NCBI RefSeq assembly: GCF_963921235.1
Contig: NC_086107.1
Location: 109,804,001 to 109,868,000 of the forward strand
Source of the DNA: Mobula hypostoma
Taxonomy: Eukaryota
Direction: 5' to 3'
Length of the DNA stretch: 64,000 nucleotides
Shown here: positions 1 to 40,857 of the stretch, in pieces
How positions within the stretch are numbered: the stretch's first letter is position 1
Layout of the letters: every line of letters begins with the position of its first letter
Translations under genes and position numbers: made by a program
Notes under the pieces: model-generated
What the model saw: the letters and a program-made list of their open reading frames with translations, nothing else
Told to the model about the DNA's origin: nothing
The model's database searches: none

Positions 1-518
1 GGCAATGAATTCCACAGATTCACCACCTCCTGGCTACAGAAATTCATCCTCCTCTCTGTTCTAAATAGACGTCCCTCTATTCTGAGGCTGTGCCCTCTGG
101 TCCTCGACTCCCCTAATGTAGGAAACATCCTCTCTAGTCCTGACTAAGGGTCTCGGCCCGAAACATCGACTGTACCTCTTCCTAGAGATGCTGCCTGGCC
201 TGCTGCGTTCACCAGCAACTCTTATGTGTGTTGCTTGAAACTCCAGCATCTGCAGATTTCCTCGTGTTAACGTCCTCTCTACGTCCACTCTACCTAAATC
301 TTTCAAAATTCGGTCTGCTTCAATGAGATTCGCCCCTTCATGCTCCTAAACTCCAGCGGGTTCAGGCCCAGAACCATCATGATTAACCCTTTCATTCCTG
401 GGATGATTCTCGTGAACCTCTCAAGTACCAACACCTCCTTTCCCTCTCCCCATGGGGGGGAGGGGGAGCTCGGTGCGGTATCCCGGCGGGACGATGCGCT
501 GCCCACAAACCAACTTAC

Positions 519-640
519 CCGGACCATGATCATCTTCTTGTTCCAGGGCCTACCATCGGGATCAGGCCAAAGCTCTCCAAAGCACAACCAAATCGTGTAC
601 TGCGGAGAGCCGCCGGTGGAGTTCACAAAGTCATGGAGCT
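519..640 (-). CDS. IRF3: IRF3 exon 8, IAD C-part; the final exon (pLxIS/serine cluster) lies outside the window
   Basis: Reads (E)[40 protein letters not shown]. cttcctctgcag| ... CGG|gtaagt; 122 nt, phase 1 to 0. Confidence 0.93.
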
Positions 641-2373
641 CTGCAGAGGAAGAGTAGAATTTAGTCATTCAATCCGGGCCGCCAGTGGCTTTAAACATCT
701 TTCAAATCTGCTGAAGTAGGTGTGGGTCCCCTTCCTGGACAACTGCTCTCTGCCTGGTGAAGGTGGTCCCAGGCTAGCTGGGAGGAAACACCAGAATTTA
801 CACCGGTAACAATGAGAGACCAGAAATATACTCAGACACCACTTTATAAGGTACACCTGATCCCAGGAGATCAGCAGTTTCTGAGATACTCAAACCACCC
901 CATCTGGCACCGACAATCATCTCACAGTCAAAGTCACAAAGATCACGTATCTTCCCCATTCTGATGTTTGGTCTGAACAACAACTGAACCTCTTGACCAT
1001 GTTGGCATGCTTTCACGCACTGAGTTGCTGCCACATGATTGGCTGATTAGTTATTTGCAACAACGAGCAGGTGTACCTAATAAAGTGGCCACCGGGCGTA
1101 TGTTCGAATTGCACTGTATTTTGTAGGTGGAACACAAAGCTGACACAAGAGTGGGGTGAGTGAATTCTGATGGTGGTGAATGAGGTACCAATCAACAGAA
1201 CGTCTCTGTCTGAGGTGGTTCTGTTTGTCCCAGGGTTATTGGAGTTGTGTTCACCCAGGTAAGTAGAAATTATCCTGCTTCACAGCTGGCCTGAAATGGA
1301 CTTCATCAAGCAGTCCTTAGGCTGTAACCTGAAACTGAAGGTGGGCACTCGAATATGGTTCATGTACCCAATGCTCTAGATGGTGGGATGGAGATACGTC
1401 TCACCAATGGAGGTGTAAGGCACTCCTTCCCTCCGCTAGCCTCCACCTGCTTAGCCCCCCAATCAGGGTCACGTCAAGCCATGGGAGCAGGTGGTGGATG
1501 GTCGTATGAGCAACCGGTGCAGATCACAAGTCCTGGTTATGCGACCGCTGACGCCAGGCAGACAATCTCTGAAGAGTATTGATAATGGCTGGGGTCACCC
1601 GATTTGTAAAGACACCGTCCAGAACGAGGCAATGGCATATCACTACTGTAGAAAAATTTGCCAAGAACGATCATGGTCATGGAAAGGCGCCGTATTGCAC
1701 AGCTGATAACGAGCGAATAAACCCAACGTTACCCATTTCACAACATACAGCCTACTGGCTTGCAGCTAAGGGAATCCGGCCTGAGTTACACACACAAAAT
1801 GCCGGAGGAAATCAGCAGGTCAGGGAGCATCTACAGAAAAGAATAAACAGTTAACCATTTGGGCCGAGACCCCTCTTCAGGACAGGAAAGGAAGGGGAAG
1901 ACACCAGAATGAAATGGTGGGAAAGGGGAAGGAGGACAAGCTAGGAGATGCAGGTGAAGCCAGGAGGGTGGGAAAGGTAAAGGGCGGGAGACAAAGGAAT
2001 CTGAGAGGAGAGAAGAGTGGACCATGGGAGAGAAGGAAGCAGGAGGGAGGTGACAGGCAGTCGAGGAGAAGAGTTAAGAGGCCAAAGTCGGAATAGAAGA
2101 AGAGGGACTGAAAAAAATTACCAGAAAGAGAAATCGATGTTCATGCCATCAGGTTGGAAGCTTCCCAGACAAAATATGAGGTGTTGCTCCACCTCCTGGA
2201 GTAGGGCAGAATGGCCTTTGTCCATGTCATATTCCCTTATATTCAGAATCTTTCAAATGTGACCCGATGCAGGTCAACATCTGACATGTGACCTTTGAGC
2301 CAATGGCGCAATGGACACGCGCCGGCTGTCTTGACATTGCTCTGGAGACCACCATGCTATGGACTTCACCCAC

Positions 2374-2742
2374 CTTTGCTGAATTTCGCCAGGCCATGGA
2401 GGACAGTGAAGCTCCTGCTCGAAATTTCCTGAGGCTCGCAACTGGTGGGGTCTTGACCCACTGACCAGAAGACCTTACAGCTGCCGTAGCGCTGGACGTA
2501 AATCTGGTTCTGCTGTACCTCCAGCGTCAGTCCCTGGCCAACTCGCTCCAGCAGTTTGTTGGTGTACTTGATCTGCCGCTGGTCACTCAGCGGCGTCGAG
2601 GTGGGATCTGGGAACCAGACGTCCTGCAGGTAGGGGAAGGAGGACTGCGAGGAGTAGGAAAGACGGAAGCCGTTGGGGTTCCTCACTATTTCCTTCTGGA
2701 CCTTTCTGCCGCGATAGTAGATCGAGACTTCAAAGTCCGTCA
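2374..2742 (-). CDS. IRF3: IRF3 exon 7, IRF association domain (IAD)
   Basis: Reads (V)TDFEVSIYYRGRKV...VWFPDP...LSDQRQIKYTNKLLERVGQGLTLEV...IYVQRYGSCKVFWS, a classic IAD sequence. tttctctttgcag| ... AAAG|gtgggt; 369 nt, phase 1-1. Confidence 0.95.
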
Positions 2743-5700
2743 CTGCAAAGAGAAACGAGTTCTACCTCAATGTCTCTTCCAAAGCATTCAGTGTTAACAG
2801 ACTGCTTCCAGCCAAATTTGGGTCCGGAATTCTCAACCCATGGCATAACACGGGCAGTGCGGTAATGTAGCGGTTAACGCAACGTCTTACGGTACCAACG
2901 ATCACCGATCGGGGTTCAATTTCTGCCACTGTCTGTAAGTCTCCTGTGACTACACCAGTTTCCTCTGAATATAAAAGCAAGGATGTAATGTTGTAACTTT
3001 ATAAGGCATTGGTGAGGCCTCACTTGGGAGAACTGTGAGCAGGTTTGGGTCTCTATCTTAGAAAGGAAGTGGACAGGGTTCGGAGGAGGCTCACGAAAAT
3101 GATTCCAGGATTGAATGGTTTGTCATATGAAAAGCACTTGATGGCTCTGGGCCTGTACTCAATGGAATTCAGGTGGTGACCAATTTGAAACCTATCGAAT
3201 GATGACAGGTCTCGACAGAGTGGACGTGGAGAGGATGTTTCCTATGGTGGCAGAGTCTAAGACCAGAGTTCACAGCCTCAGAATAGGGGGGCGTCCTTTT
3301 AGAAAGGAGATGAAGAGGAAGTTCTTTGGCCAGAGAGTGGTGAATCTGTGGAATTTGTGGCCACAAGCGGCAGTGGAGGCCACCTTTATGTATATTTAAG
3401 GCAGAGGTTGATAGATTCTTGATTGCTCCGAGCGTGAAGGGATACGGGGAGACGGCAGGAGGTTGGGGCTGAGAGGGACAACGGATCAGCCATTATGAAA
3501 TGGTGGAGCCGACTCGATGGGCCAAACGGCCTGATTCTGCTCCTGTATCTTACGGAATCCTGGTCTCACAGCTGTTGCTGTGAAGCGTTACGCCAGTCAC
3601 TACGCTGCCGTGCACATGCAACTCAGACTAAAACAGAGAGATAGATGCTATGCCACAGCAGTATAACCAAACCTCAGTATTGTGAAAACAACAGGCTACA
3701 AAGCCCACTTACAAAATGCTATCAACGTCAGTGTTGTGCCAGTGAAAACACATCACTTTTAAGAAGAGGCACTTCACACTGGTGCCATGGTAACGTAGTA
3801 GTTAGAGCAACGCTATTACACCTCAGGGCATTCCGAAGTCCAGAGCTCAATTCTGGCGCCATTCTGTAAGGAGTCCCTGTACGTCCTCCCCATGGAATGC
3901 GCGGGTTTTCTCCGACAGTCCGAAGAGCATAGAAGAGTTTACAATTATATAAAGCCCAGGCATTCGGAGGGCACACCACTACTGAACAGTGCACGGATGA
4001 TGTCTCCTCGCACGGTGACCAAACGTTTGCAAATGCATTGCCGAGATTGGAGAACAGCTCAAGCCCAAGTCCAGAGACCCGCCGGGTAGGTCAACTGGTC
4101 ATCGCAAACTGCCCCGTGATTAGTTTAGGGCTAATCGGGGTTTGTCGGGGGTTGCTGGGGCGGGGTGTGGCTCGAAAGGAATGGGGAAGGCCGACTCCAC
4201 ACTCTATCGCTTAACAAGCAGTTCACTCCAGAAACTCAACCTAGCATCTCAAAGCACACGTTGCACCCAACGCACTTTCTGCAAAGAGCGCACAGCATTC
4301 CCCGTGGAACGCTCCTTTTCCTAGAGGAATGTTAACACCTGACTCAGGAATTCTATCACCAAGCGAAGTTTGGGGTGGTACAAGAAAAAGAGAAGAAAAA
4401 GGGTGAAATAGGGAGAGAGCGAACAACTATCTCAAACTCAGAGCCACTATCCCATGAGATTGGTTGCAACTAGAATTACAGGTCAGAATCAGAATCAGGT
4501 TTACTATCACCGGCATGTGTTGTAAAATTTGTTAACTTAGCAGCAGTACTTCAATGAAATACATAATATAGAAGAAAAATAAATAAATTACAGTATATGT
4601 ATATTGAATAGATTAAAAATCGAGCAAAAACAAACAATATACATTAAAAAAGTGAGGTGGTGTTCATAGGTTCAATGTCCGTTTAGGAATCAGATGGCAG
4701 AGGGGAAGAAGCTGTTCCTGAATCGTCATAGGTTAAGGGTGGAAGGTGAAATACTTAAAGAAAACCTGAGAGGAAACGTCTTCATTCAGAGGATGGTACA
4801 AGCACAGAGTGAGCTGCCAGTAACATTAAAGAGAAGTTTGGAGGGCTATGGTCAAGGAGCAGGTAGATGGGAATCGGCCGGAGCTCCCAAAGTTTTTTAA
4901 TGTCATGGACCAGTACCATTAAGCAAGGTGTCTGTAGACCCCAGGTTGGGAACCCCTGGACTAGGCAGAAAAACAAGTCAGCATGGACTAGATGGGCTGA
5001 AGGGCCTGTTTCTGTGGTGTGATGCTCTATCACTCCACGGCTAACGATAAGGTACTTTGCAAAGAGTTCTGGCATCTAGAGGTGGGGGGAACGGAGCGGA
5101 CAGCAACACGTGTGCCGCAGCTGAGGGGAAGTGCTGGGGACACTCAGTGGGTCAGGCAGCGTCTGAGAGGGAAAACGAGAAAACAAGTTAGCCTGGCAGA
5201 GTTTCTACGCTGGAGATACCAAGGTTCAGATCCGCTGACACCACCTTTCATTGCTTCCAGTTGCCAAAATCTTTCTATCTTCCATTTCCCTCCCACCCTA
5301 ACCTGTTCGTCTGCAGTCCAACAAAAGTTTGGGGAACACCATGTTCCATTCAGACCCTATTGTGGTTCCAGTACTAAATTCAGCAATTTCAGGTAACACA
5401 ACTTTCCTAAACTGAGCAGTTCTCTCTTCACAAACCCGGCCTAATTTATTGGTTTAGAGATACACGGTGCTACCGGCCCTTCGAGCCACGTCTCCCAGCA
5501 ACCCCCCGATTTAACACTAGCCTAATCACAGGACAATTTACGATGACTGACCGGCATGTCTTTTGGACCGTGAAACCAGAGCACCCAGAGAAAACCCACG
5601 CACTCCACGGGGAGGACGTACAAGTTCATGACAGATGACATCGGAATTGAACTCTGAACTCTAGTGTCGCACTAACCGCGAATGATGAACCGCCCATTTC

Positions 5701-7085
5701 TGCCGTTCCCCCTTCCCAACAGATTCCAACAGCAGATCAGGCGGGACCTGCATTTCACATCTCTCTCCAGGACTCAACAACCTGATGAAGACAGAGCTCT
5801 GTAAACGGCAGGATGAGATGAGAATTCCAGCCTCCCTCCAACGGGAAGACCCCCTTTATCCTGTTCAGCACGACTTGGCCTCCAGAGCTGCCTGTGGCAA
5901 TGAACTGCAGAGATTCACCACTCTCTTGCAAAAGAAATCCCTCCTCGTCTCTGTTCTAAAAGGATACCCCTCTATTCTGAGGCTGCGTCCTCCGGTCCTA
6001 GACTCTCCCACTATTGGAAACATCCTCTTCACATCCATTCCGTCAAAGCTTTTTGCCATTTGATAGGTTTCAATTAAGTCACCCCCTCATTCTTCTGGCC
6101 CAGAACCATCAAATGCTCTTCACATGACAAGCTGTACAATCCTGGAATCATTTTTTGTGAATCAGTTTTGCAGAGGGAACTTACAAGGATGTTGCCTGGA
6201 TTGGAGAGCATGCCTTATGAGACTAGGTTGAGTGAACTTGGCCTTTTCTCCTTGGAGCAGCAGAGGATAAGGGGTGACCTGATAGAGGTGTATAAGATCG
6301 TGTGGATTGCCAGCGGCTTTTTCCCCAGGGCTAAAATAACTAACACGAGGGGACATAGTTTTAAGGTTCGTGGAAGCAGGTACAGAGGGGATGTCAGGGG
6401 TAAGTTTTTCACACAGAGTGGTGGGGTGCATGGAATGCACTGCTGGCGACAGTGGTGGAGGCGGATACAATAGGGTCTTTAAAGAGCCTTTTAGATAGGT
6501 ACATGGAGCTTAGAAAAATAGAGGGCTATGCGGTAGGGAAATTCTAGGCAGTTTCTAGAATAGGTTACGTGGTCGGCACAACATTGCGGGCCGAAGGGCC
6601 TGTTATGTGCTGTAGTTTTCTATGTTCTATATTCTATGAACACGCTCCAGTGCCAGCATTTCCTGTCTTAGTTAAGGGGCCGCAAATTGGCTCATGATAC
6701 TCCAAGTGAGGCCTCACCGGTGCCTTATAAAGTCTCGACTTTACATCCTTGCTTTTATATTCTGGTCCTCTCGAAATGAATGCTGACATCGCATTTGCCT
6801 TCCTCACCATCGACTACACCTGCAAATTAACCCTTAGAGAATGCTGCACAAGGACCCCCAAGTCCCTTTGCGCCTCAGATTTATGAATTTTCTCTCCTGG
6901 TCAGCTGCCAGTTTGCAGCTTTTCCTTTTATTTCTGGTTTCCAGCATCTGCAGTTTTATTTTCCATTTTGCCATCACACGATCAGCAGAGCTACGGGCTA
7001 CGACTGGCTAGGGACTAACTCCGCCAGCTGAACACGCACTCAAGCAACGCACGGGGCGACGGTGAAACCAAAGGTGGGGACTAAC

Positions 7086-7331
7086 CGAGCACCCGGTCCG
7101 GAAAATACTCCTTCATCTGTGCTTTGAACTCGGTCGTGCTCGGAATCATGGCACTGGGGTTTACGTCCAGGGTCGGCGTTGCCCAAGCGCCGTCTGCCGC
7201 CGCGCCAAGGTCAGGCAGAGGGGTTGGGTTTGCTTGGCTCTGACTAGCTGGAGGCATAGCTTGGAATGGAGAATAGCTGGGGATATTCAGCGCCAGCCCC
7301 GCGTCATCCAGAGGCACTTGATTACTGGGTC
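7086..7331 (-). CDS. IRF3: IRF3 exon 6 (proline-rich linker to IAD)
   Basis: ctctcttatttcag|GA CCC... reads (G)PSNQVPLDDAGLALNIPSYSPF...EFKAQMKEYFPDRVL, ending CTCG|gttagt. 246 nt, phase 1-1, open frame. Confidence 0.85.
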
Positions 7332-7408
7332 CTGAAATAAGAGAGGCAACGTTAGATTGGCTTGCAGATATCCCACTCAATCTAAGGCACTGCCAAGATG
7401 TCAATTCT

Positions 7409-11232: not shown

Positions 11233-11284
11233 CTGGTATTTGGCTGAAAATCCTCAGACCACTCAGACTGCTCTCCAGAGTTGC
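11233..11284 (-). CDS. IRF3: IRF3 exon 5 (putative NES-containing mini-exon)
   Basis: cttttgttatttcccgcag|GCA... reads ATLESSLSGLRIFSQIP(G), ending CCAG|gtacct. 52 nt, phase 0 to 1, supplying the phase bridge needed between exons 4 and 6. LESSLSGLRI fits the L-x3-L-x2-L-x-I NES pattern at roughly the position of the IRF3 NES. Confidence 0.7.
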
Positions 11285-17279: not shown

Positions 17280-17374
17280 CGTGTTAGGAGGTGCAGGTAG
17301 GGACACATGGTTGACATCCGCGACAGGGAGCTTCACCTCTTCCTCCTCATTGCTGCTGGCATCGGATTCCAGGT
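17280..17374 (-). CDS. IRF3: IRF3 exon 4 (acidic/proline linker)
   Basis: ttctttctccacag|AC CTG GAA... reads (D)LESDASSNEEEEVKLPVADVNHVSLPAPPNT, ending ACG|gtacgg. 95 nt, phase 1 to 0, compatible with exon 3. Confidence 0.8.
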
Positions 17375-21076: not shown

Positions 21077-21078
21077 AG
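20580..21078. repeat. Polypyrimidine / (CT)n low-complexity tract
   Basis: Almost purely C/T on the + strand, ending in (CT)n. Confidence 0.9.
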
Positions 21079-23125: not shown

Positions 23126-23161
23126 AGTCGACGTTTCAGGCTGAGACCCTTCGTCAGGACT
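23126..23161 (-). ncRNA. Minimal hammerhead motif, sense to IRF3 intron 3
   Basis: AGUCCUGACGAAGGGUCUCAGCCUGAAACGUCGACU; core intact. Confidence 0.6.
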
Positions 23162-25818: not shown

Positions 25819-26507
25819 TTCTTCTTATTCTACTATTTCTGGCTGTTTAGACGCATCTAGGCGTATCACAGCCCTCCGCAGGATGTATAATTAATCACAG
25901 AACTTCAAGGGACTCAAATTCTCGAATACAACCTAGTCTCACGTATAAACTGAACAATAGACTCTTCAATCAGACGTTGATTCTCTTGATGGCCAAACAA
26001 AGATTGAATAGAAAACCAAAATAAATTTAAGCCAGATAGCCTCTTGAACAACATGCTTCTTTCAATTTTGTATCGATTACAGCTCATCAAAACATGCTGG
26101 ACTGTCTCTGGACTACCACGGTCACATAATCCAGTAGGATGTTTTCCCATTATCTTTAAATAATAATTTAGCCCACAATGCCCCAACCTAAGTCTTGTAA
26201 ATTTCACCATACCTCTACGACTTAAAAGGTAACAGTCTGAGACCTTTTTAACTAGTGCGTGACTAGAAAAATAATGCCTGCCCCTTAATTCATTTTTCCA
26301 ATCCTCCTGCCACTTCTTCTCTATACCTTTTTTAATCCTACTTCTCAATTCTGCTCTGCCTAGAGGAACTCTAATTTCTACTTGCCTGCTCTGTAAGGAA
26401 GACTTTGCAATGCCATCCACAATTTCATTTCCCTCCACCTCAGCATGCCCAGGTATCCATGAAAATCTAACTGCACAACCCATCTTCCCTACTCTAAACA
26501 ACACTTT
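25819..26507 (-). mobile_element. RNase H-bearing I/Nimb-type LINE 3' fragment, copy 1
   Basis: Near-identical to the 46.4-kb copy; TSD CAGAACA(T/C)CCTC at 25807-25818 and 26508-26519. Confidence 0.85.
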
Positions 26508-28224
26508 CAGAACACCCTCGAATGTGTTGGTTGTTAATGCAAACGACACATTTCATTGTGTGTTTCACTTCGGTACAGATGAGTGACAATAAGTAATTTT
26601 GAATCTTGCAGTAAATAAATTTGAATCTGGAGAAGAAAATGAAAATATTGCCTCATTGTTATTTTGCTTGTGATTTAACTTTGCTATGCCTGATGCCTGC
26701 TTGTATTTTTATATAATCACACACACACATATAGTAATTACAGTAGAGTTGCTTCTGTATTTTTCTGTAAGGTTCCAAGCTTTCCTGGCGATTTTCGTTT
26801 TTATTTATTTACTGAGACACAGTGTGGAGTAGACCATTTGAACAGCACTGCCCAGCAACCCCCCAGTTCACCCCGAGCCTAATCACAGTGACCGACTAAC
26901 CTACTAAACGGTACGTCTTCAGACTGTGCGAGCAAACCCACGCGGTCACAGGGAAAACGTACAAACTCCTCACGGGCAGTGTCGGGAATTGAACCCGGGT
27001 CGCCTGTACTGTGAAGCGTTGTGCTGACCATTACGCTGCTGTGCTGCCCGGTTAGTTGTTACCGATGGAATTTTGTTTATCTCTGGCACAGTATAGAAGA
27101 CCACAACTACTGGACTGGATTTTATTTATGTTTTTTAAAGCAACCATCCCTAAGGATATTCCGACAAAAACATCAGTATCTTTGATCTTTCAGTACAAAG
27201 AGGTGGAAGAAAGCAGGGATAAAGCAGTCCATTTAATAACAGAGGTATCATCCCAACATTAATCTCTCCTGGTAATCTTTTTTCTCATTCCCCCACCCCC
27301 TGCTCTTCTTCCATTCCCCATTCTGGCCTCTACTCCTCACCTGCCTATCAGCTCCCCCGTAACCCTCCTCCTTCCCTTTCTCCCATGGTCCACTCTCCTC
27401 TCCTATCAGATCCCTTCTTTTCCAGCCCTTTACCTCTCCCACACCTATCACCTTCTAGCTCGTTCTCTTCCCTCCCCCACCTTTTTATTCTGGCATCTTC
27501 CCCCTTCTTTCTCAGTCCTGCAGAAGGGTCTCAGGCCAAAACGTCGACTGTTTATTCATTTTCATAGATGCTGCCTGACCTGCTGAGTTCCTCCGGCATT
27601 TTGTGTGCGTTGCTCTGGATTTCCAACATCTGCAGAACCTCTTGCGTCTACCATCAACTCCTGCCTTCAAATAGGCCCTCCTGACCCTTCAAGCCGCACC
27701 CCCCGATTTAACCCTGGCCTAATTGTGGGACAAGTTACAAAGACCAATTAACCCACCAACCAGTACGTCTTTGCACGGTGGGAGGAAACCCACGCGGTCA
27801 CGGGGAGAACGTACAAACTCAAGGGCAGCGGCAGGAATTGAACCTGTGTCGCTGGTACTGTAAAGTCTGAGACACAGAAGAGATTCTGCAGATCCTGTGA
27901 GCAACACACACAAAATGCTGGGGGGACCTGGCAGGCCTTTCTAATCAAGCAGGATAACACCTCAGCCTGTCAGAGAATTGTCTCCGTGATTAAATAGCGC
28001 TAGGGTATGTTTTGCCTGAGAGAGGATCCGAACACTGGATATGTTGACGACATGATTCCGTTCAACCGAGGAATGTGCCCTCTTGTTGAAGGGGAATGAG
28101 CTTTAGATAAACTCCCTGTGTCTCGTTAACAACGATGGAGAGAATAGCTTCGCACAGTACCGTCAAACACTGTTCCTGAGCCGATACTCTCATTGTCCCA
28201 CTGCACTGGTCGCTACCATCAGAT

Positions 28225-28261
28225 TTTTGACACACAAAACGTTTGGACAAAGTGTTTTAAT
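28225..28261 (-). terminator. Poly(A) signal of the intronic terminal exon
   Basis: Minus strand reads ...gacaaATTAAAacactttgtccaaacgttttgtgtgtc: ATTAAA (28256-28261) followed by a GU-rich element, ~185 nt after the stop codon. Confidence 0.65.
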
Positions 28262-28445
28262 TTGTCAGGTAAAACGGATGCAAAAATAAAAACGAAATAC
28301 CAACATCTAATAAATTAGTTTATAGTTGCTCTTGTGAATGCCTTGCAGCTAACATCCAGTCTACCCTGTTACCTTGGTAACCTCACTTGGGGCACTGGTG
28401 CACTTTAGCCGAGGCCCCTACTATGTACCAGCAACTAGGGGGCGA

Positions 28446-29716
28446 CTACTTTGTCATACTAGTGCCCAGAGGAGAGTGTTCGATTTTGCCGGAAGTCTGG
28501 CGTGGCCGTTTCAATGCCCCAGAGCCTGTGGGAGGTTGTTCTGTTGTGCCAACACCCTGGGGCGGCTGCTTGTTTATCTTGGTGTATGTCCGCAGTGGGC
28601 GCCCGTGGCGACCTCTGGGAGAGCAGGGTTCCAGCGCGCTGCCATCGGGGGCTGTGGCACGGGACGCCTTGACGTGGGACACGGGCAAGGGCTTTGCCCG
28701 AGGGGAGAAGCTGATGCCGCGAGGGAGGACACTGGTCCGGAGAAGCGGAACGCCGCTGGGCCTCTCCCGGGGGCGGGCGGCCAGCTCCCTGCAGATCTGC
28801 TGCGTCCCCGACTGCACCGCGTCCGTCAGAGACTTCAGGCCGGCGCCGATCCCCACCACCAGGTCCCGCAGGACAGCCGTCTGCTCCCGCAGCGCCGCCG
28901 TGTTCTTCCGGGAGGTGGCCCTCTGCTCGCGCAGGGCGGCGATCTGCTCGTGCTGGAGGGCCAGCTGCTCCCGCGCGGCCTCCCTCTGTTCGCGGAGGAG
29001 GGCGACCTGCTCCCGGACGGCCTCCCGCTGCTCCCTCATGACGGCCACCTGCTCCCGGCTGACGGCCAGCAGCGCCCGGCTGGGGTTACCCTGGGCCTCC
29101 ATGGAGGCGCAGAGACTTTGAACAGCCTCCTCCTGCGCCTCCATGGAAGCCAGGACCCGGTCCATCAGCCGCTGCATCGCGGCAGCGTCCGTGCCGGTCG
29201 GAATGGAGCTGCGTATCACCTCCACGCTGGAGCTGAGGCTGTCCTGGCTCCAAAGGACCTCCTGTGCAAGGTTGGAGACCGACACCTCCATACTCCTGGC
29301 CATCTCCTGCATCCTGTCTGAAAGGCTAGATAACGAGCCAAGCATTTCGCCGTGCATCTGCACCAGCCTTTTCTTGAATGCCTCCCTGTCAAAGTTCTCG
29401 CTCAGGTCCTCCGGGGCAGTGCTGCTATGCGGACTCTCTCGCCGGGGGGCCTGCACCTCACTTTCCCTTTGCTTCTTGGCTGGCTGCAGCCCACTAGTGC
29501 CAGCGACGTCGCGATGGGAAGTACGACCCTCCAAGAGCTTGTCCTCTGCCTTCAGGGTTGCACTGTCCGAAAAGGCGCTCAGAGATAGGTGCCATGACGT
29601 GAGGTGCCCCTCTTCCTCCATATCTTCCTCAGAGACCTCCTCCTCCTCCTCCTCCTCATCCTCTTCCTGCTTTTGTATCTGATCTGAGGATGATGGTGAA
29701 TTTCCCTCCGGAAAGT
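28446..29716 (-). CDS. Intronic 423-codon terminal exon (acidic tract, helical region, REQ-heptad coiled coil); predicted alternative last exon of IRF3
   Basis: Uninterrupted GC-rich ORF; acceptor ctttttctttatcattgcag|AC (phase 1, same as IRF3 exon 4); stop TAG at 28446-28448; poly(A) signal downstream. Confidence 0.8.
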
Positions 29717-32700
29717 CTGCAATGATAAAGAAAAAGAGCATGGCTACTTATATTGCAGGGTTCCCGGATGGAAAGTAGCCAACAGTCTGCCACCCGGTGG
29801 CGGCCCTCTGTCATTGCAGCGAGCGGAGCGCAGGATCTCCGCAAAGATTTTGCGTGCCCTCCTCCTGTGCCCCCAGTGCAAGCCGGAACCCAAAACTCAC
29901 GCAACGCAGTGCTAGATGGCCCGCGGCAGTCTGCAAGGAGTTTCTACGTTCTGCCCAAGACCTCGTGGGTTTCCTCTGGCTTCCTCCCATGTTCCAAAGA
30001 CGTACCGGTTAAGATTAGTAAAACTGTGGGCGCGGTTAGTTGGCGCCGGAAGTGTGGCGACACTCGCGGGCTGCCCCCAGCTCGTCCTCGGACGGTGTTG
30101 GTCGTTGACACAAAACGACGCATTTCACTGTACGTTTCGATGCAGGACCACAAGACACAGGAGCAAAATTAAACCATTCATCCCATCGAGTCTGCTCCGC
30201 CATTCCATCATGGCTGGTTCATTTTCCCTCACAACACCATTCTCCTGTCTTCTCCCCGTAACCTCTGACGCCCTTACTAATCCTGTCGGCCTCTGCTTTA
30301 AAAACACCCAATGACTTGGCCTCCGCTGCCTTCTGTGGCCATGAATTCCACAGATTCACCACCCTCTGGCTAAAGAAATTCCTCCTCATCTCTGTTCTAA
30401 AGGGACGTTCTTCTATTATGAGAACAAAGGCCAATACTGTGACGTGTACACAGGACAAATAAAACTAATCTTTATCTTTGCTTTTGATTCATTAAGGGAG
30501 ATAGGGGCTATGAAGGGCCTTAAGGAATGGCAAATCGGATGTGTTTAGCCCTCCCTCTGCGATAACTTGGGCTTGGGGATTGGCTGTGTACAGAGGGGAT
30601 TCTTTCTTCTTGCCCAGTCTGAGGGGGAAGGACAGCCTAAGAGGCTTCCCACCTGCCGGCCAGACCACCAGCGATCACTGGAAAACTGTGCCTGAAAGAT
30701 AAGGGGGGAACACACATAAAATGCTGGAGGAACTCAGCAGGCCAGGTAGCATCTCGCAAAAGAGTAGTCTACGTTTCAGGCCGAAACTCTTCGGCAGGAC
30801 CCTAAAACGTCGACAGCACTCTTTTCCTAGATGCTGCCTGGCCTGCTGAGTTCCTCCAGCATTTTGTGTGTTGCTCGGATTTCCAGCGTCTGCAGATTTT
30901 CTCCTTTGAGATAAAGGGGGAAAGTCTTTTACAGAACGGTCCTCTGCTTGATCTACGTAGGTGTCAGTTCGTCTGTCGCTCAGCACGGGAGCATGCGCCT
31001 GCATTGCGTGCATGAGGTGAAGGTTTGCAAGGGGCTCCAAGTCGTCGACGCATTTGAGACGCAGCTCAGAGTGCTGACATTAGCTGCAATCTTTGCACTT
31101 CTGTCTGCAAAGCTCTGTTTTCCTTCAGATCGCACTCCCAGCAGACGGCTGTCCGTCCAGTCCTACCAGCTACAACCGAGCTTAAACCTCGAAAGCCTCT
31201 TGATACCACACCCCAGTGCATTCCATCCACCGGCTTGGGTGGGGTTTAATCCACTGGGATGACCGGTATTATACAGGGATCACTCCGTGTCCACTCCCCT
31301 CCCTCAACAGACCACATGGCCATTTTTCAGCTACCCTGGCACACGATCTCCATGGCTTTAGAACCTGCATCATACACCTGACTGGGAAACACTGCCTGAG
31401 GGAAACAAAACTGTACCGACATACTCGGACCCCAATCGAAAACTGTGACCCCAATGGCCCATTATTGATCAAAGCAGTGAGACATTTTAACGTGGCTATA
31501 TGGTCTGAAAGAACAGAGTTTACTCCTCTCCATCGATGCTGCCTGACCTGCTGAGTTTCTCCAGCATTTTGTGTGTGGATATTTCTTTGATTCTCTCTTC
31601 TTCTTGAACAATCGTTATTTCTGCTTCCCCACCTCCTCTAAGATGCTTAGTTTCCCCCCATACACACCGCACTCCTATCAACTCCCTCTCTCTCAAACCC
31701 ACCACCCCTCCTTCCCCTATCCACTGCCACTTCCACCACAGCTCCCGCTCCATCCCTCATGTGCCACGAGTCCTCCCTCCCCATTCACCGTCTCACCCTG
31801 ATGACCCACCTTCACATTCCCCTGGCGTCCGACCCCTTACTAACCTCTTCATCCCACTCCACCCAACCAAGTCTACACACCAAGCCCACCTACCTGAATT
31901 CCTCCCATGTTTTTCCAACCCCTTAATATTGTTATAGCTGGGAGTGATAATGGACACAAGCTCCCACTGCCAACTTAATGCTCCCGTTGACGTGCGCCTC
32001 AAATAGCCCCTGATAACCAAGACCACCTCCTGGCCTTCACATGCAGCTTCGCTACTAAGCCCCAGGTGGGCTGTTTCTACCGAAAGGAGAGGGCAAAGGC
32101 GGGTTACTGGTGCCGTAAAACCAGTCGCTTCGGGCAGACGGAGCTCATTGTGGTTGGCAGCTCGTTTAGGAGAAGGCAAACTCTGATCTCAAACCTCCGC
32201 TGCCTTGCGGCTACACCCACTCACGGGGAAGGCTTCGGGAGTAAACCCCCGCGAGGGAAAAATCTGGAAATGGAGTCCCTAAGGCAGCGCTACGTTGAGC
32301 TCAACGCTGACTGGCAACTCCTGAGACGCTGCTGGTACCAAACTGTATTGGTCTTTGCCGTTCCTCTGGACTCATCAGGTGTGGAGAGGGGGCAACAGCT
32401 TGCTCTCCAGATGGTACTGCCCTGGCTTGTGTATCTAGACAGCTAGGACTCAACATCCATGGTCAGCCCTGACTGACGGAAGCCTCCCAGCCCTTCCTCC
32501 CTCGATGAGGGGCAGAGTTAGCTCAAGGGCCCAATGATCGTCCCCTGCTCATGCCTTCCAAGGCCCCTCCTCCTCCATCACGCTGCGTCTCCCTCCCTGC
32601 AGGCGGAATTCAACCGGGAGCCTTGTGAAGTGACACACTTTGGAACAAACTTGAAAGCGGGGAACACGGCAGAATCCTTAGCAGTGTGGACGACCGGAGA

Positions 32701-34821
32701 GATCTTGTGGTCTATATCCACAGGTCTCCAAAGTTGATAGGAGTGGTTCAGGTGGCTTCCGTTATTCAGGGGCTGAAGGCCGTGAGGTAACACCGCGACT
32801 CGGCAAAACTCTGGTTAGACCATGGTATTGTGTTCTGTTCTGCTCACCCCGTTATAGGAAGGAAGTGGAAGCTTTAGGGAGGGTGCGGAGGAGATTTACC
32901 AGGAGGCTTCCTGGACTACAGAGCAGGTTTTATGAGGATCGGTTGAGCGAGCGAGGTGTCTTCTCTTTGGGGGAAAAGGAGGTGACCTGACATAAGGTGT
33001 ACAAGATGACAAAAGGTACAGATAAGAGTAGACAGCCAGAGACTTCTTCACAGGGAGGAAATGGCTAATACAGCAGGGGAAAATTTTAAGATGATCAAAG
33101 GAAAGTATGGGGGGGGGGGGACATCAGAGGTAGGTTTTTTAACATAGAGTGCATGAAGATCAAGGAATGCACTGTTGGGGGTGATGGTACAGGTTAGTAT
33201 ATTAGGGACATTTAAGACACTCTTCAGACACGTGGATGAAAGAAAAGTGGACGGCTATGTGGAAGGGAAGAGTTAGATTGATCGTAGAGTGGGTTAAAAC
33301 GTGAACACAACATACAGGCTGAAAGGCCTGTACTGTGTTGTATTTGCTACCCTCCACTCCATCTCCATCAGTCATTCTACTGGGAAGTCCCTGTCATAAG
33401 ACACAGGAGCAAATTAGGACATTCAGCCCTTCGAGTATGCAATGCCATTCCCATCACAGTTGATCGATTATCCCCCCTCGACCCCATTCCCCTGCCTTCT
33501 CCCCACAACCAATCAACCTCCGCTTTAAATGGACCCAAAGACCTGGCCTCCACAGCCGTTCGTGGCAGTGAATTGTACAGATTCCCCGCCCTCCGGCTGA
33601 AGAAATTCCTCCTCGTCTCGGTTCCACAGTGGTGTCCTTCTACTCTGAGGCCATGCCCTCGGGTTCTAGTCTCACCCAGAACAGGAAACATCCTCTCCAC
33701 GTCCACTCTACCCCGGCCTTTCAACATCCCATAGGCTTCAATAAGATTCACCCTCCCTTCCATTCTTCTCCAGTAAGCACAGGACCAAAGACGTCAAACA
33801 CACCTCGTACGTTAACCGTGAGCCTCCTCTGGACCCTCTCCAATGCCAGCGCATCCTTTCTTAGAAACGGAGCCCAGAACTGCTCAGTGCCCTCTTCAAG
33901 TTTCTATCTAGTCATTGATGACAGAATGAGATTTGACAAGAATTGCGTGGGATCTCTGCAGTCTGTGGAAGTGGGGGAGCTAGAGTCAGACGCCATCTAC
34001 TAGACAAAATGCTAAATCAAAGCCCTTTATGCTCCATCAGACAGGTGTCAGAGATCACACTGCTTACCCTTTACTTGGTCTTAAAGGCAGATTAATGCGC
34101 TGCACTCAGTGGTCCCTTTAATAGGTGCACCCGCTCGTTAATGCAAATATATAATTAGCCATTCGCTCGGCAGCAACTCCATGCATAAGAGCACGCAGAC
34201 ACGGTCAAGAGGTTCAGCTGCTGTTCAGACCAAACATCAGAATGGGGAAGAAACGTGATCCCAGTGACTTTGTGCAATGATAGCTGGTGCCAGATGGGGT
34301 GGTTTGAGCATCTCAGAAACTGCTGATCTCCTGGGATTTTCACACACAACAGCCTCTAGAGTTTACAGAGAACGGTGCGAAAAACAAATAAAACACCCAA
34401 TAAGCAGTTCCAAGGGCGAAAATGCCTTGTTAATGAGGGAGATCAGAGGAGAATGGCAAGACAGAAAGGCAACAGTAACTCAAATAACCACACGTTACAA
34501 TGGTGTGCTGAAGAGCACCTGATGTCGAAACTTGAAGTGGGTGGGCTACAGCAGCAGAAGACCGCAAGCATACACTCAGCGGCCACTTGATTAGGTCCAG
34601 GTGGTACCTAATAAAATACCCAGAGAGCATCATCACAGTAACCTTTTAAGGAACTGACTGCCCATCCTCCATAAGGGTAACCGCCAGGTTAGAGCAGACT
34701 GTTTGTACCCCAAACAATTCTCAAGTCAGAGAGGCAGACTGAGTTGCCAGGCAGCAGAAGATGCCAGCAGGTCTATCCTGCTCGTCACTCAAACGCTCCA
34801 TCGCACGTACAGATTTTAACG

Positions 34822-34980
34822 CACGTTGGACGCTCGTAACTTGGGGAGAACCGATTGTGTTTCTTGGATTTACTGTGAATGCGCGAAAGGAAGTGAATCT
34901 ACACGTTGGACGTTCGTAACTTGGGGAGAACCGATTGTGTTTCTTGGATTTACTGTGAATGCGCGAAAGGAAGTGAATCT
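34822..34980. repeat. Tandem duplication, 2 x ~80 bp
   Basis: CACGTTGGACG(C/T)TCGTAACTTGGGGAGAACC...GGAAGTGAATCT repeated at 34822 and 34902. Confidence 0.9.
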
Positions 34981-35276
34981 TGGGGTTGTACGTGGTGACA
35001 CATATGTTGTTGTTGTTCCTTCGCGCGCCTTCTGGGCATTTCTGCTGTATCTGACGCATTTGTCTATCTTTCCACGAGGCCGAGTGGCTAGCTCGATGCT
35101 CAGCCCAGCACGGGTGGAAAGCGCGCAAGCAAGGAGCTGGCCGGATTCGAACTCGGGCCCACTCGCCCCGCAGTCCGGGTGCGGATGCCACGACACCACC
35201 AGCCAGCGTTAACTTCTATGTGCTTTGATAATAAATTTAACTTTGAACTTTGGAATGACAGACTGAGGTTACTCAC

Positions 35277-35448
35277 CGGAGTTATGGATCTCGTAGATCA
35301 AGTGGGGGTCGAGGGGATCACTCCTGTTGTCCTGCACTCTACGGAAATGCTTCTTTCGTGCTAAAGCACTTCGGAAGTTTCTCTTCCACACAGGGGGATT
35401 TGGAGCATCGATTCCTACTCTGTACCGGCCACTGGCTATTGCCCAAGC
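35277..35448 (-). CDS. IRF3: IRF3 exon 3, DNA-binding domain C-half
   Basis: Reads AWAIASGRYRVGIDAPNPPVWKRNFRSALARKKHFRRVQDNRSDPLDPHLIYEIHNS. WKRNFRSAL is IRF3-type (IRF7 has KTNFRCAL). 172 nt, cttcgcag|GCT ... TCCG|gtgagt, phase 0 to 1. Confidence 0.95.
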
Positions 35449-40692: not shown

Positions 40693-40857
40693 CTCAAATA
40701 TCTTGACATCATCCGAGGAGATGTTCTGTCTCAAGCAGTGTTTCCAAGGAATCCTGAACTGTCTCTTCTCTTTATTTACCCAGCAGAGGCCGGGGTACTG
40801 GCCGCTATCTACTTGCGTGATGAGCCACGGACACAGCAAAGGCTTCTGGGAACTCAT
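40693..40857 (-). CDS. IRF3: IRF3 first coding exon (exon 2), DNA-binding domain N-half
   Basis: Reverse complement reads MSSQKPLLCPWLITQVDSGQYPGLCWVNKEKRQFRIPWKHCLRQNISSDDVKIFE, containing three of the five IRF tryptophans. 165 nt; acceptor ttttcactctcttcccagcag; donor GAG|gtaacg, phase 0. Absent from the ORF track. Confidence 0.95.

What the first reader, a model, noticed from the sequence alone, without database searches (positions are those of the whole stretch)
28235..35448. Hidden alternative last exon turns IRF3 into a DBD + coiled-coil chimeric protein lacking the IAD
Seen in sequence: IRF3 exon 3 ends in phase 1 (TCC G|gtgagt). About 5.5 kb into intron 3, on the same strand, a strong acceptor (ctttttctttatcattgcag|AC) opens a stop-free 423-codon exon in the matching phase; it begins G|AC (Asp), as does the normal exon 4. 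The exon ends with TAG, then ATTAAA and a GU-rich element. An intact, CpG-rich 1.27-kb ORF among mostly decayed repeats suggests either selection or a recent origin. I found no separate promoter or first exon for it. Predicted product: ~535 aa (112-aa IRF3 DBD with KR/RK NLS, acidic tract, helical region, coiled coil), lacking the NES, IAD and TBK1-phosphorylated tail. Inference: a constitutively nuclear, phosphorylation-independent ISRE binder (repressor or constitutive activator) chosen by intronic polyadenylation. This would be a lineage-specific switch in interferon control that I do not recognise as described.
Basis: partly seen in the sequence, partly recalled or inferred. Interest (0 to 1): 0.92.

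Follow-up and report, generated by a model that had tools for sequence, protein, structure and literature searches.

The report
IRF3 isoform with captured helical exon
In rays and skates the antiviral master gene IRF3 carries, inside its third intron, an old borrowed exon that can replace the whole signal-receiving half of the protein with a long helical module, giving a second, so far unstudied form of IRF3.

Summary
Exon 3 of an IRF3 gene (minus strand, 35448-35277) ends in phase 1. A strong acceptor at 29716 opens a 423-codon exon (stop at 28446) in the matching phase. Joining the window's exons gives a 535-aa protein identical to a RefSeq model of Mobula hypostoma named only "uncharacterized protein isoform X1".

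The same DBD-plus-module models exist in 7 batoid species, next to normal IRF3 isoforms. Transcript-like contigs from 4 runs (3 organisms) cover the exon and all stop exactly at 29716. Their graph pattern fits a branch after exon 3.

The exon is single-copy in the 3.5-Gb genome, so it is not a recent transposon insertion. It derives from the last exon of an elasmobranch Myb/SANT-like ("MYPOP-like") gene family, with the same phase-1 acceptor. It has been inherited vertically since before skates and rays split. Among rays it is about as conserved as the IRF3 IAD.

The fold model is a disordered acidic tract, a roughly 210-aa antiparallel helical hairpin with 10 heptads, and a disordered tail.

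Function is inferred, not shown: most likely a phosphorylation-independent, nuclear ISRE competitor.

The parts
40693..40857 (-). First coding exon of IRF3 (ATG at 40857; residues 1-55 of the DBD), donor GAG|gtaacg
   Evidence: tblastn with P0008 and P0004. Donor read. The joined CDS equals P0004.
35277..35448 (-). IRF3 coding exon 2 ('exon 3' of the finding): residues 56-112 of the DBD, with KR at 77-78 and RKK at 86-88. Phase-1 donor TCCG|gtgagt. Shared by both isoforms.
   Evidence: Contigs of 4 runs lie on 35277-35450 and carry exactly 2 further letters past the donor.
29717..29738 (-). Polypyrimidine tract and AG of the alternative acceptor (ctctttttctttatcattgcag)
   Evidence: Read. The paralogue on contig C40 has the same layout, ttgtttgtttcccatttcag|AC.
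28446..29716 (-). Alternative terminal coding exon: 423 codons plus TAG, residues 113-535 of the chimeric isoform
   Evidence: Contigs of 4 runs end their fit exactly at 29716. Single copy in the genome. Orthologues in 7 batoid species.
29402..29716 (-). Part coding the disordered acidic tract (exon residues 1-105), including the GAG-repeat poly-Glu run at about 29636-29668
   Evidence: AlphaFold2 pLDDT below 50 for residues 4-105. TRF 3-nt repeat.
28773..29401 (-). Part coding three long helices (exon residues 106-170, 176-208, 214-314) modelled as an antiparallel helical hairpin; the best conserved part
   Evidence: pLDDT 78-90. (weak matches to chemoreceptor and SMC hairpins only). (Mobula-Hypanus identity 95% and 92% in these regions).
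28848..29057 (-). Ten heptads (REQVAVM REQREAV ... RDLVVGI) inside the third helix. The array is a 21/42-nt tandem repeat whose copy number differs between rays and skates.
   Evidence: Heptad print-out. TRF periods 21 (7 copies) and 42 (2.7 copies) at 28923-29070. Expanded array in P0015 and P0013.
27830..28445 (-). 3' untranslated region as far as contigs follow it, with ATTAAA at 28261-28256 and a GT-rich run at 28240-28229. The true 3' end is not determined.
   Evidence: signals. (X1 contig 27830-29716, X5 contig from 28195, X10 contig 27824-28267). A SINE-like repeat starts near 27870.
17280..17374 (-). Normal IRF3 exon 4 (cag|ACC..., Asp-Leu-Glu-Ser, acidic), the competing acceptor for the exon-3 donor
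11233..11284 (-). Normal exon 5 (ATLESSLSGLRIFSQIPG), the Leu-rich stretch where the NES of IRF3 is expected. It is absent from the alternative isoform.
   Evidence: tblastn 100% to P0008 residues 142-159. Borders read. The NES assignment is by position only and is recalled from the human protein.
516..7368 (-). Normal downstream exons with the IAD (about 7330-7087, 2743-2375, 647-516). The last exon lies beyond the window's start.
   Evidence: tblastn. PF10401 hits at 2369-2761 and 306-668.

Best explanation
SHOWN. This is the IRF3 gene of a devil ray. Its product is identical to a Mobula hypostoma RefSeq model. The phase-1 donor of the last DBD exon has two acceptors to choose from.

- Exon 4 at 17374 gives normal IRF3, with linker/NES, IAD and a Ser-rich GASSL tail.
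- A terminal exon at 29716, 5.5 kb into the intron, carries its own stop and poly(A) signals.

The second choice gives a 535-aa protein with four parts:
- the complete IRF DBD (1-112, including the basic KR/RKK patches);
- a roughly 105-aa disordered acidic tract;
- a roughly 210-aa antiparallel helical hairpin containing 10 heptads;
- a roughly 105-aa disordered basic, Pro-rich tail.

The exon was captured once, before skates and rays diverged. Its source was the last exon of an elasmobranch Myb/SANT-like (PF13873, 'MYPOP-like') gene, whose acceptor has the same phase and the same first residue. It has been kept open ever since.

INFERRED. The isoform lacks the NES but keeps the DBD-borne nuclear import signals, so it should sit in the nucleus without stimulation. 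It lacks the IAD and the phospho-acceptor tail, so it cannot be switched by TBK1-type kinases, cannot pair with IRF3 through the IAD and cannot recruit CBP/p300 through it. I expect the hairpin to supply constitutive self-association.

My commitment is that the isoform occupies ISRE/PRD-type sites and acts mainly as a competitor that sets the threshold of, or damps, IRF3-driven interferon induction. Its amount would be set by the splice and polyadenylation choice in intron 3.
For: Gene models
- The joined window exons equal P0004 with 0 differences.
- DBD-plus-module models are present in Mobula hypostoma, M. birostris, Hypanus sabinus, Hemitrygon akajei, Pristis pectinata, Rhinoraja longicauda and Amblyraja radiata. 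In 5 of the 7 a normal IRF3-like isoform with an identical DBD was listed beside it. For M. hypostoma the normal exons are in the window itself. None was listed for Hemitrygon or Amblyraja.

Transcript-like contigs
- In 4 of 4 runs laid (3 organisms, 3 studies) one contig covers the exon, ends its fit at exactly 29716 and has 28 more letters beyond.
- In the same 4 runs the exon-3 contig stops exactly 2 letters past the donor.
- The alt exon and exon 4 share exactly their first 2 letters, AC. A 31-word assembly graph would give 2 and 28 at such a branch.
- The contigs respect the exon borders, so they are spliced RNA.

Constraint
- Identity of M. birostris to Hypanus / Pristis / Rhinoraja is 88.9 / 70.6 / 47.2% for the alt exon. 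It is 81.1 / 72.5 / 60.3% for the normal C-terminal part, and 84.7 / 77.7 / 66.0% for the IAD alone.
- The frame is open in all 7 species, and the helices are the best-kept part.

Origin
- The exon is single-copy at DNA level in the 3.48-Gb assembly.
- A paralogue on contig C40 matches at E 1.5e-22 and 39% identity. It sits behind Myb_DNA-bind_5 exons and has the acceptor cag|AC.
- The module is found in shark Myb proteins.
- In the tree the IRF3 modules form one clade with 100/100 support and species-like inner order.

Fold
-.

Analogy for the direction of the effect
- Mammalian IRF3 isoforms that keep the DBD but lack IAD parts (IRF3-nirs3, IRF-3e, mouse IRF-3a) compete at the IFN-beta promoter and lower induction (passages of PMC8636596).
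Against: - No protein, localisation, DNA-binding or reporter data exist for this isoform. Every functional step is inference.
- The 28 unlaid letters of the alt-exon contigs were not displayed, and the 35277-to-29716 joint is not among the 15 joints shown (1598 more were cut). The junction is therefore inferred from contig geometry plus the RefSeq models, not read directly.
- The runs are labelled RNA only by the tool's guess.
The monomer model has a mean pLDDT of only 59.
- The long acidic tract next to the DBD could equally be an activation domain. That would reverse the sign of the effect.
- The tail, and against skates the whole module, diverge faster than the IAD: 47% against 60-66% identity.
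- No dN/dS could be computed, because no DNA from other species was available.
- The Amblyraja model uses the exon as an internal cassette (DBD + module + IAD), so the terminal-exon form may not be the only form, or in skates the main one.
Confidence: 0.55

Rival explanations
1. Same isoform, opposite sign. The chimeric protein is a constitutive, phosphorylation-independent activator. Its DBD binds ISREs and the poly-Glu acidic tract works as an activation domain, keeping a basal set of interferon-stimulated genes on without infection.
For: A roughly 105-aa disordered tract with a run of Glu/Asp directly follows the DBD and is kept in all 7 species (VSEEDME is invariant). The parent Myb family has the same acidic stretch between DBD and helices, a common layout of activators (general knowledge).
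Against: The known IAD-less IRF3 isoforms that were assayed are inhibitory (PMC8636596 passages). The one named relative of the parent family, MYPOP, is reported as a repressor, though through its DBD, with its C-terminal part inactive in that assay (PMC6265261 passages). Normal exon 4 also codes an acidic stretch, so acidity at this place is not special to the isoform.
Confidence: 0.2
2. In at least some batoids the exon works mainly as an internal cassette. A donor inside it joins to exon 4, giving DBD + module + IAD: a regulated IRF3 with an extra oligomerisation arm. The terminal-exon form would then be a by-product.
For: The Amblyraja radiata model P0015 (935 aa) reads DBD, module, then the normal exon-4 sequence and the IAD in one frame. 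At the homologous place the window has AGA G|GT (28613-28611) in phase 1, which would be in frame with exon 4 (own reading).
Against: This is a single gene model in 1 of 7 species. In the window the putative donor GTCGCC departs from the GTRAGT consensus (recalled) at four of its six positions. All ray models seen, and the second skate (Rhinoraja X1), are terminal-exon forms. Contigs in 4 runs run through this place into the 3' UTR.
Confidence: 0.1
3. The exon is a tolerated remnant of a Myb/SANT-like gene that landed in the intron. The chimeric transcript is splicing noise without a selected function.
For: The exon comes from another gene family. Its tail and repeat number drift. No functional data exist.
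Against: The 423-codon frame is open in 7 species spanning the skate-ray split. Among rays it is as conserved as the IAD. The helices are 95% and 92% identical between Mobula and Hypanus. The tree follows the species. Other copies of the module in the same genome have decayed with 1-9 stops, which shows what neglect looks like.
Confidence: 0.08
4. The exon belongs to an independent nested gene with its own promoter and first exon inside IRF3 intron 3, not to IRF3.
For: The parent family has Myb exons upstream of this exon. The Hypanus isoform X2 (P0005) starts from another first exon.
Against: tblastn with Myb exons of the paralogue and of shark relatives finds no credible remnant in the window at E up to 1. 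All 7 species' models join it to IRF DBD exons, and P0005 still contains IRF exon 3. The exon-3 contigs branch 2 letters past the donor in 4 of 4 runs, as expected if exon 3 feeds two acceptors.
Confidence: 0.04
5. A recent, passive insertion of a transposable element whose ORF is still intact only because it is young.
For: The exon is GC- and CpG-rich and sits among decayed repeats. The intron holds SINE, reverse-transcriptase and RNase H fragments.
Against: The DNA search of the whole 3.48-Gb assembly finds one full copy. The other 11 of 12 matches cover only the GAG repeat, query positions 43-108. Orthologues sit in the same gene in skates and rays. No transposase family was found among 26 ORFs in 20 kb around the C40 paralogue, only a BTB zinc-finger gene and reverse-transcriptase fragments.
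Confidence: 0.01

Closest known systems
RefSeq gene models 'uncharacterized protein LOC134354096 isoform X1' (Mobula hypostoma, XP_062918922.1) and its counterparts in M. birostris, Hypanus sabinus, Hemitrygon akajei, Pristis pectinata, Rhinoraja longicauda and Amblyraja radiata
   Same: This is the same object. The window's joined exons give the M. hypostoma model exactly. The other models are its orthologues.
   Different: They are automatic predictions without name, domain description, origin or function. The link to IRF3 shows only in the sister isoforms' names.
IAD-less or IAD-damaged splice isoforms of mammalian IRF3 (IRF3-nirs3, IRF-3e, mouse IRF-3a, IRF3-CL)
   Same: One IRF3 gene makes, by alternative processing, proteins that keep the DBD but lose the activatable half. 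Those assayed compete at the IFN-beta promoter or hold IRF3 back (PMC8636596 passages).
   Different: Those arise by exon skipping or shifted splice sites within IRF3's own exons. They add no foreign domain and are described from single species or tumour cells. Here a foreign 423-codon terminal exon with its own poly(A) signal replaces everything after the DBD, and it is kept across Batoidea.
Elasmobranch Myb/SANT-like (Pfam PF13873, named 'MYPOP-like' by one source) proteins with the same C-terminal module, such as P0070 and P0074 of Pristiophorus and the paralogue on contig C40 of this genome
   Same: The whole alt exon, from the phase-1 acceptor and first Asp through the acidic stretch and helices to the start of the tail, is homologous to their last exon.
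   Different: Their DNA-binding part is a Myb/SANT domain, whereas here it is an IRF domain. The IRF3 copy sits on a long branch (0.67 changes per site) and has an inserted heptad array. Whether mammalian MYPOP shares the module was not tested.
New transcription factors made by exon capture or exon shuffling, such as host-transposase fusion genes (bioRxiv 10.1101/2020.05.07.082677; only the start of the abstract was seen in the listing)
   Same: A ready-made exon with its own splice acceptor lands in an intron and is spliced to the host's upstream exons as an alternative isoform, giving a new domain combination.
   Different: There the captured part is usually a transposase DNA-binding domain, and the host gives the effector domain. 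Here the host gives the DBD and the captured exon gives the non-DBD part. No transposon link was found for the source family.
IRF2-type antagonism of IRF1/IRF3 sites (recalled textbook knowledge, not checked here)
   Same: An IRF DBD without an activatable IAD that sits on the same DNA elements and limits interferon gene induction.
   Different: IRF2 is a separate gene with its own repression domain. Here the antagonist-like protein would come from the IRF3 gene itself.

Membership tests
IRF family / IRF3 orthologue | N-terminal IRF tryptophan-pentad DNA-binding domain (Pfam PF00605) | tested here: met
   The proteins equal or orthologous to the window's product carry PF00605 in the precomputed table. 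Residues 1-112 are 100% identical to the IRF3-like isoform P0008.
IRF family / IRF3 orthologue | The same gene also encodes the IRF association domain (PF10401) and a C-terminal Ser-rich GASSL-type tail, and its nearest named relatives are IRF3 | tested here: met
   PF10401 at 2369-2761(-), E 1.3e-26, and at 306-668(-), E 1.1e-9. tblastn to P0008 finds these exons, and P0008 ends ...GIGASSLRSDEMNLQ. Among the 64 hits the nearest named relatives, from sharks to tetrapods, are called IRF3 or IRF3-like (one shark model is named IRF5-like). The GASSL motif is named in the abstract of PMC7066157, seen in the listing.
Alternative last exon (skipped terminal exon with intronic polyadenylation) | Upstream exons shared with the main isoform; own acceptor, in-frame stop and poly(A) signal inside an intron | tested here: met
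Alternative last exon (skipped terminal exon with intronic polyadenylation) | Transcripts that join the shared donor to the alternative acceptor and end downstream of it | tested here: inconclusive
   Contigs of 4 of 4 runs end at 29716 with 28 extra letters, and the exon-3 contigs end 2 letters past the donor. This is the pattern expected, but the joint's letters and the 3' end were not displayed. Contigs cannot show ends.
Myb/SANT-like PF13873 ('MYPOP-like') family | Myb_DNA-bind_5 domain | tested here: not met
   No Myb exon was found in the window by tblastn at E up to 1. The Pfam scan of the exon gives only weak coiled-coil-type hits below cut-off. The isoform is not a member of the Myb family as a protein.
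Myb/SANT-like PF13873 ('MYPOP-like') family | The family's C-terminal last-exon module (acidic stretch plus helices) with a phase-1 acceptor | tested here: met
   The C40 paralogue matches at E 1.5e-22. Profile hits to P0069, P0070, P0072, P0074 and P0076 have E 3.7e-26 to 1.3e-16 over profile positions 13-245. PF13873 is present in P0070, P0074 and the L010 exon 1. The acceptor is cag|AC in both.
Dominant-negative IRF3 isoforms | Keeps the DNA-binding domain and lacks a functional IAD | tested here: met
Dominant-negative IRF3 isoforms | Lowers IRF3-driven IFN promoter activity | not testable with these tools
   Needs reporter assays.
Coiled-coil oligomerisation domain | Heptad periodicity and long helices | tested here: met
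   Ten heptads. DNA repeat of period 21/42 nt. Helices 106-170, 176-208 and 214-314 at pLDDT 78-90.
Coiled-coil oligomerisation domain | Self-association | not tested
   Complex prediction was queued out and then declared unavailable. No result.
Transposable-element insertion or TE-derived exon | Many dispersed copies, or a transposase/RT context | tested here: not met
   One full DNA copy in 3.48 Gb. A small family of module exons exists, some intact and some decayed. No transposase family was found near the C40 paralogue.

The most novel reading that the evidence does not exclude
Batoids carry, nested in IRF3, a second selected transcription factor: an IRF DBD on a constitutively self-associating helical module. 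It would give the interferon system a kinase-independent arm, either tonic or feedback control of ISRE sites, set purely by a splice/polyadenylation choice. The module itself would be a portable effector/oligomerisation exon that elasmobranch genomes have attached repeatedly to unrelated nucleic-acid-binding domains: Myb/SANT, IRF in batoids, a SAMD1-type winged helix in a cow shark, and possibly KH in a whale-shark model. In the IRF3 and SAMD1-type cases it would take the place of the host's own oligomerisation domain (the SAMD1 side of this is recalled).
Probability: 0.3. Interest if true: 0.8.

Novelty: new variant of a known kind. Interest (0 to 1): 0.62.

Why it matters
IRF3 is the switch that turns virus sensing into interferon production, and its control is thought to rest on phosphorylation of the IAD and tail. 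A whole vertebrate clade appears to have kept a form of IRF3 that keeps the DNA-reading half and swaps the switch for a helical module from another transcription-factor family. The age of the skate-ray split, roughly 200 million years, is recalled and was not computed here.

If the isoform is active, interferon thresholds in rays and skates are partly set by RNA processing rather than by kinase signalling. That would be a clean natural experiment on what an IRF3 DBD does when made dimeric and nuclear without activation.

It is also a clear, datable case of a new transcription-factor architecture made by capture of a terminal exon whose intron phase happened to match. Comparative studies that keep only the isoform most like the human one would miss it (method passage of PMC11841930).

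Tried and rejected
- Pfam scan of the exon: only sub-threshold coiled-coil-like hits (DUF2968, GAS and others). No named domain.
- ESM Atlas: no usable hit for the whole exon or for residues 100-320.
- Foldseek against the PDB: no match at E up to 0.001. The best rows are generic antiparallel helical hairpins, the Thermotoga chemoreceptor 3g6b_B at E 2e-3 and SMC arms. They are used only to describe the shape.
- First Pfam scan for IAD exons: none found, but I had left out the ORFs below 2919, where the IAD lies. It is void as evidence and was corrected. One search failed on too many items.
- The look-up of sequencing runs: no RNA holder is on record. All 13 runs are RNA only by guess.
- Contig depths. 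The alt-exon contigs have mean word depths of 10.6 / 8.2 / 10 / 6.2, against 42 / 25 / 43 / 22 for the exon 2-3 contigs. The tool warns that such depths cannot rank parts of a gene, so I draw no usage ratio from them.
- dN/dS: not computable, as no DNA of other species was at hand. One search displayed 5 coding differences. Three are at third codon positions (28605, 29334, 29448). Two are first-position replacements (28463 Thr531Ala, 29102 Met318Val) that match P0001. That is too few for a test.
- Complex prediction for two copies of exon residues 105-320: queue full or not sent on, declared unavailable. No result either way.
- Harbinger or other transposon origin of the parent family: no transposase among 26 ORFs in 20 kb around the C40 paralogue. 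Not pursued further.
- Equivalent of the Hypanus alternative first exon (P0005): no credible match in the window.
- Earlier notes of this scan: nothing.
- Literature. Searches listed no paper on such an isoform. I saw listings only, plus passages of PMC11841930, PMC8636596 and PMC6265261. The find in PMC13187161 returned nothing. Subscription journals and supplements were not seen.

Full report
WHAT IS THERE

On the minus strand the window holds most of an IRF3 gene. tblastn with the IRF3-like isoform of Mobula birostris (P0008, 454 aa) places the exons as follows:
- first coding exon at 40857-40693;
- second DBD exon at 35448-35277;
- normal exons at about 17374-17280, 11284-11233, about 7330-7087, 2743-2375 and 647-516.

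The last exon lies beyond the window. Pfam finds the IRF association domain at 2369-2761 (E 1.3e-26) and at 306-668 (E 1.1e-9). My first scan missed it only because I had left those ORFs out.

The DBD exon ends AACTCCG|gtgagt, in phase 1. The acceptor ctctttttctttatcattgcag|AC lies 5.56 kb downstream, at 29716. It opens a frame that runs to TAG at 28448-28446. This is the longest stop-free frame in the window. None of 2000 shuffles of the region reached its length.

Joining 40857-40693, 35448-35277 and 29716-28446 gives 535 residues with 0 differences from P0004. P0004 is the RefSeq model 'uncharacterized protein LOC134354096 isoform X1' of Mobula hypostoma.

THE EXON IS ALREADY IN PUBLIC GENE MODELS AND IS OLD

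A search with the exon alone found three protein clusters, all with an IRF domain in front: M. birostris (98% identity), Hypanus sabinus (88%) and Pristis pectinata (69%). The clusters also hold M. hypostoma and Hemitrygon akajei.

A search with the DBD alone gave 64 hits. It showed that M. birostris, Hypanus and Pristis each have both an 'uncharacterized protein isoform X1' (DBD plus module) and an 'IRF3-like isoform X2/X3' (DBD plus IAD). It added two skates:
- Rhinoraja longicauda, with X1 of 483 aa and X3 of 456 aa;
- Amblyraja radiata, with a single 935-aa model.

No DBD-plus-module model from a shark appeared. The shark models in that list all carry both PF00605 and PF10401. Neither the word-based search (4 hits) nor the profile search over 1.84 billion representatives (49 hits) found an IRF-plus-module protein outside batoids. 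Electric rays could not be judged, because only a normal Narcine isoform was listed.

EXPRESSION

The run index listed 13 runs holding the exon, none on record as RNA. I laid the contigs of four of them on 17000-36000. They were X1 and X2 of organism A, X5 of organism B and X10 of organism D, from three studies.

In all four runs one contig covers the exon and its fit ends at exactly 29716, with 28 letters left over:
- X1: 27830-29716, 4 differences;
- X2: 28456-29716, 0 differences;
- X5: 28195-29716, 27 differences;
- X10: 28443-29716, 29 differences.

In all four runs another contig lies on 35277-35450. It has exactly 2 letters beyond the donor and 168 or 293 letters beyond the acceptor side, so it is spliced to the upstream exon.

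The alt exon starts ACT and exon 4 starts ACC, so they share exactly two letters. In an assembly graph of 31-letter words, a branch after exon 3 plus AC would leave the exon-3 contig 2 letters past the donor. It would give each branch contig 31-1-2 = 28 letters of exon 3. The word size is the one the index uses; that the contigs were built with it is recalled.

The numbers fit in four of four runs. This is good indirect evidence that exon 3 feeds both acceptors in RNA of three organisms. It is not a read-out of the joint. The 28 letters were not shown, the joint table was cut, and contigs cannot show transcript ends.

The 3' end is therefore open.

NOT A TRANSPOSON; WHERE THE EXON CAME FROM

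A DNA search of the whole 3.48-Gb assembly finds one full copy, the window's own. The other 11 of 12 matches cover only the GAG repeat.

A protein search finds a diverged intact paralogue on contig C40 (E 1.5e-22, 39% identity over exon residues 33-219) and five weak copies with 1-9 stops. A second search adds intact module exons on C22 (two copies) and C52, plus more decayed ones.

The C40 locus is a small gene. Its upstream exons encode a Myb/SANT-like domain (PF13873, E 1.1e-12), and its last exon is the module. That exon is entered through ttgtttgtttcccatttcag|AC, which has the same phase and the same first Asp as in IRF3.

The profile search finds the module (profile positions about 13-245) in shark proteins:
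- behind a SAMD1-type winged helix in Heptranchias (P0069);
- behind KH domains in a Rhincodon model (P0076);
- in several models without another domain.

The remaining hits match only the REQ heptads, and I treat them as composition.

No Myb remnant is left in the window. No transposase family lies within 20 kb around the C40 gene.

In a maximum-likelihood tree of the core module (17 rows) the seven IRF3 copies form one clade with 100/100 support on a long branch (0.67). Inside it are the skates, the sawfish, and the stingrays with the devil rays. The Myb-type copies of sharks and of Mobula form the other clade.

The simplest reading is one capture of a family member's last exon in the sense orientation in IRF3 intron 3, before skates and rays split. 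It was made productive by the chance match of intron phase.

CONSTRAINT

Percent identity of M. birostris to three other species:

| Region | Hypanus | Pristis | Rhinoraja |
|---|---|---|---|
| DBD | 97.3 | 84.8 | 83.0 |
| Alt exon | 88.9 | 70.6 | 47.2 |
| Normal C-terminal part | 81.1 | 72.5 | 60.3 |
| IAD plus tail | 84.7 | 77.7 | 66.0 |
| Linker | 75.0 | 62.9 | 50.4 |

Within the exon the helices are best kept: 95% and 92% identity between M. hypostoma and Hypanus, against 87% for the acidic tract and 81% for the tail.

Among rays the module evolves like a constrained protein. Towards skates it diverges faster than the IAD, and its heptad array changes in length.

No dN/dS was possible. M. 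hypostoma and M. birostris differ at 10 of 423 residues.

THE PROTEIN

AlphaFold2 with 17 aligned sequences gives a mean pLDDT of 59. Exon residues 4-105 and 318-423 are disordered. Three helices (106-170, 176-208, 214-314) have pLDDT 78-90. Foldseek finds nothing significant, and the nearest shapes are long antiparallel helical hairpins.

The third helix holds ten clean heptads (REQVAVM, REQREAV and so on). They are encoded by a 21/42-nt tandem repeat.

The DBD part carries KR at 77-78 and RKK at 86-88. That these are the nuclear import signals is recalled from human IRF3. The Leu-rich stretch of exon 5, where the NES is expected, is absent from the isoform, as are the IAD and the GASSL tail.

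HOW IT MOST LIKELY WORKS

Shown:
- two acceptors compete for one donor;
- the upstream acceptor ends the message early;
- the product is a full IRF DBD on a foreign helical module.

Inferred:
- nuclear residence without stimulus;
- insensitivity to the activating kinases;
- no IAD-mediated pairing or coactivator binding;
- self-association through the hairpin;
- occupation of IRF3 sites.

I favour a competitor or damper role (0.55). Every assayed IRF3 isoform that keeps the DBD and loses IAD function is inhibitory (PMC8636596 passages).

The main rival is a constitutive activator using the acidic tract (0.2). A cassette use of the exon, as in the Amblyraja model, is possible in skates (0.1). 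The window has a phase-compatible but weak G|GT at 28613-28611. Noise (0.08), a nested independent gene (0.04) and a young transposon (0.01) are poorly supported or refuted.

In the module's two clearest fusions it follows a DNA-binding domain. In IRF3 it takes the place of that protein's own oligomerisation domain, the IAD. SAMD1 normally ends in a SAM domain (recalled), so the same may hold there. This is why I expect the module to self-associate, but the one tool that could have tested this was unavailable.

COMPARISON AND NOVELTY

As a sequence it is already public, as unnamed automatic models. I found no paper on it in six searches (listings only). One comparative IRF study that used the Atlantic stingray states that it kept only the isoform most like the human one (PMC11841930, method passage).

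It works like the known IAD-less IRF3 isoforms. It arose like exon-capture fusion genes (bioRxiv 10.1101/2020.05.07.082677, abstract start only).

It differs from the first group in carrying a foreign, folded, clade-wide conserved module. It differs from the second in that the host supplies the DBD and no transposon is involved.

I file it as a new variant of a known kind, of solid interest to comparative immunology. The function is still to be shown.

Noticed in passing
P0015 (Amblyraja radiata model); window 28611-28616: The 935-aa skate model reads DBD, module, then normal exon 4 and the IAD in one frame, so it uses the exon as an internal cassette. At the homologous place the window has AGA G|GT in phase 1, followed by a poor donor sequence (GTCGCC).
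   Followed up: partly
P0069 (Heptranchias perlo, 540 aa) and P0076 (Rhincodon typus model, 566 aa): The same module follows a SAMD1-type winged helix (PF21524, E 1.2e-25) in a cow shark and KH domains in a whale-shark model. These may be further independent captures of this terminal exon, or may be model fusions. In the Mobula genome a SAMD1-type WH lies on C81, and no module hit was listed on that contig.
   Followed up: partly
G000 C40:116982944-116983498, C22:148937911-148938441, C22:152163006-152163503, C52:57374557-57374817 (loci L010, L022, L023): A small family of intact module exons exists in the same genome (open frames of 234, 303, 431 and 119 aa), besides about ten decayed copies with stops. 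Only the C40 copy was shown to follow Myb/SANT exons.
   Followed up: partly
P0005 (Hypanus sabinus isoform X2, 500 aa): A model that starts from another first exon, skips the first DBD exon and so joins half a DBD to the module. No counterpart of that first exon was found in the window.
   Followed up: partly
window 28353-29321 and 28381-29121, plus strand: Open frames of 322 and 246 codons run antisense to the alt exon, with no Pfam match. They are most likely a by-product of the GC-rich, repeat-rich coding sequence.
   Followed up: partly
window about 27760-27870 and 29800-30110, minus strand: SINE-like repeats flank the exon on both sides. One has a tRNA-like ggttcaattcc box and a ...gtgggtttcctcc... 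core. Contigs break there, which hides the real 3' end of the transcript.
   Followed up: no
P0007 (Pelodytes ibericus, 925 aa) and P0026 (Gastrophryne carolinensis, 901 aa): Two frog 'IRF3' models are about twice the usual length and carry both IRF domains. P0007 scored highest of all against the DBD. They may be tandem or fused models. Not examined.
   Followed up: no
window 51130-51489 (+), 58122-59058 (+), 53218-53544 (+), 8176-9015 (-), 25917-26552 (-): Other content of the window: a GDSL-lipase-like ORF fragment (PF13472, E 2.5e-8), Tc1/mariner remnants (HTH_Tnp_Tc3_2, DDE_3), and reverse-transcriptase and RNase H fragments in the introns and upstream.
   Followed up: no
window 29102 (codon 318): Contigs of runs X1, X5 and X10 read C where the window has T (Met318Val). 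One run of the same organism as the best holder differs from the assembly here, so the site is probably polymorphic.
   Followed up: no
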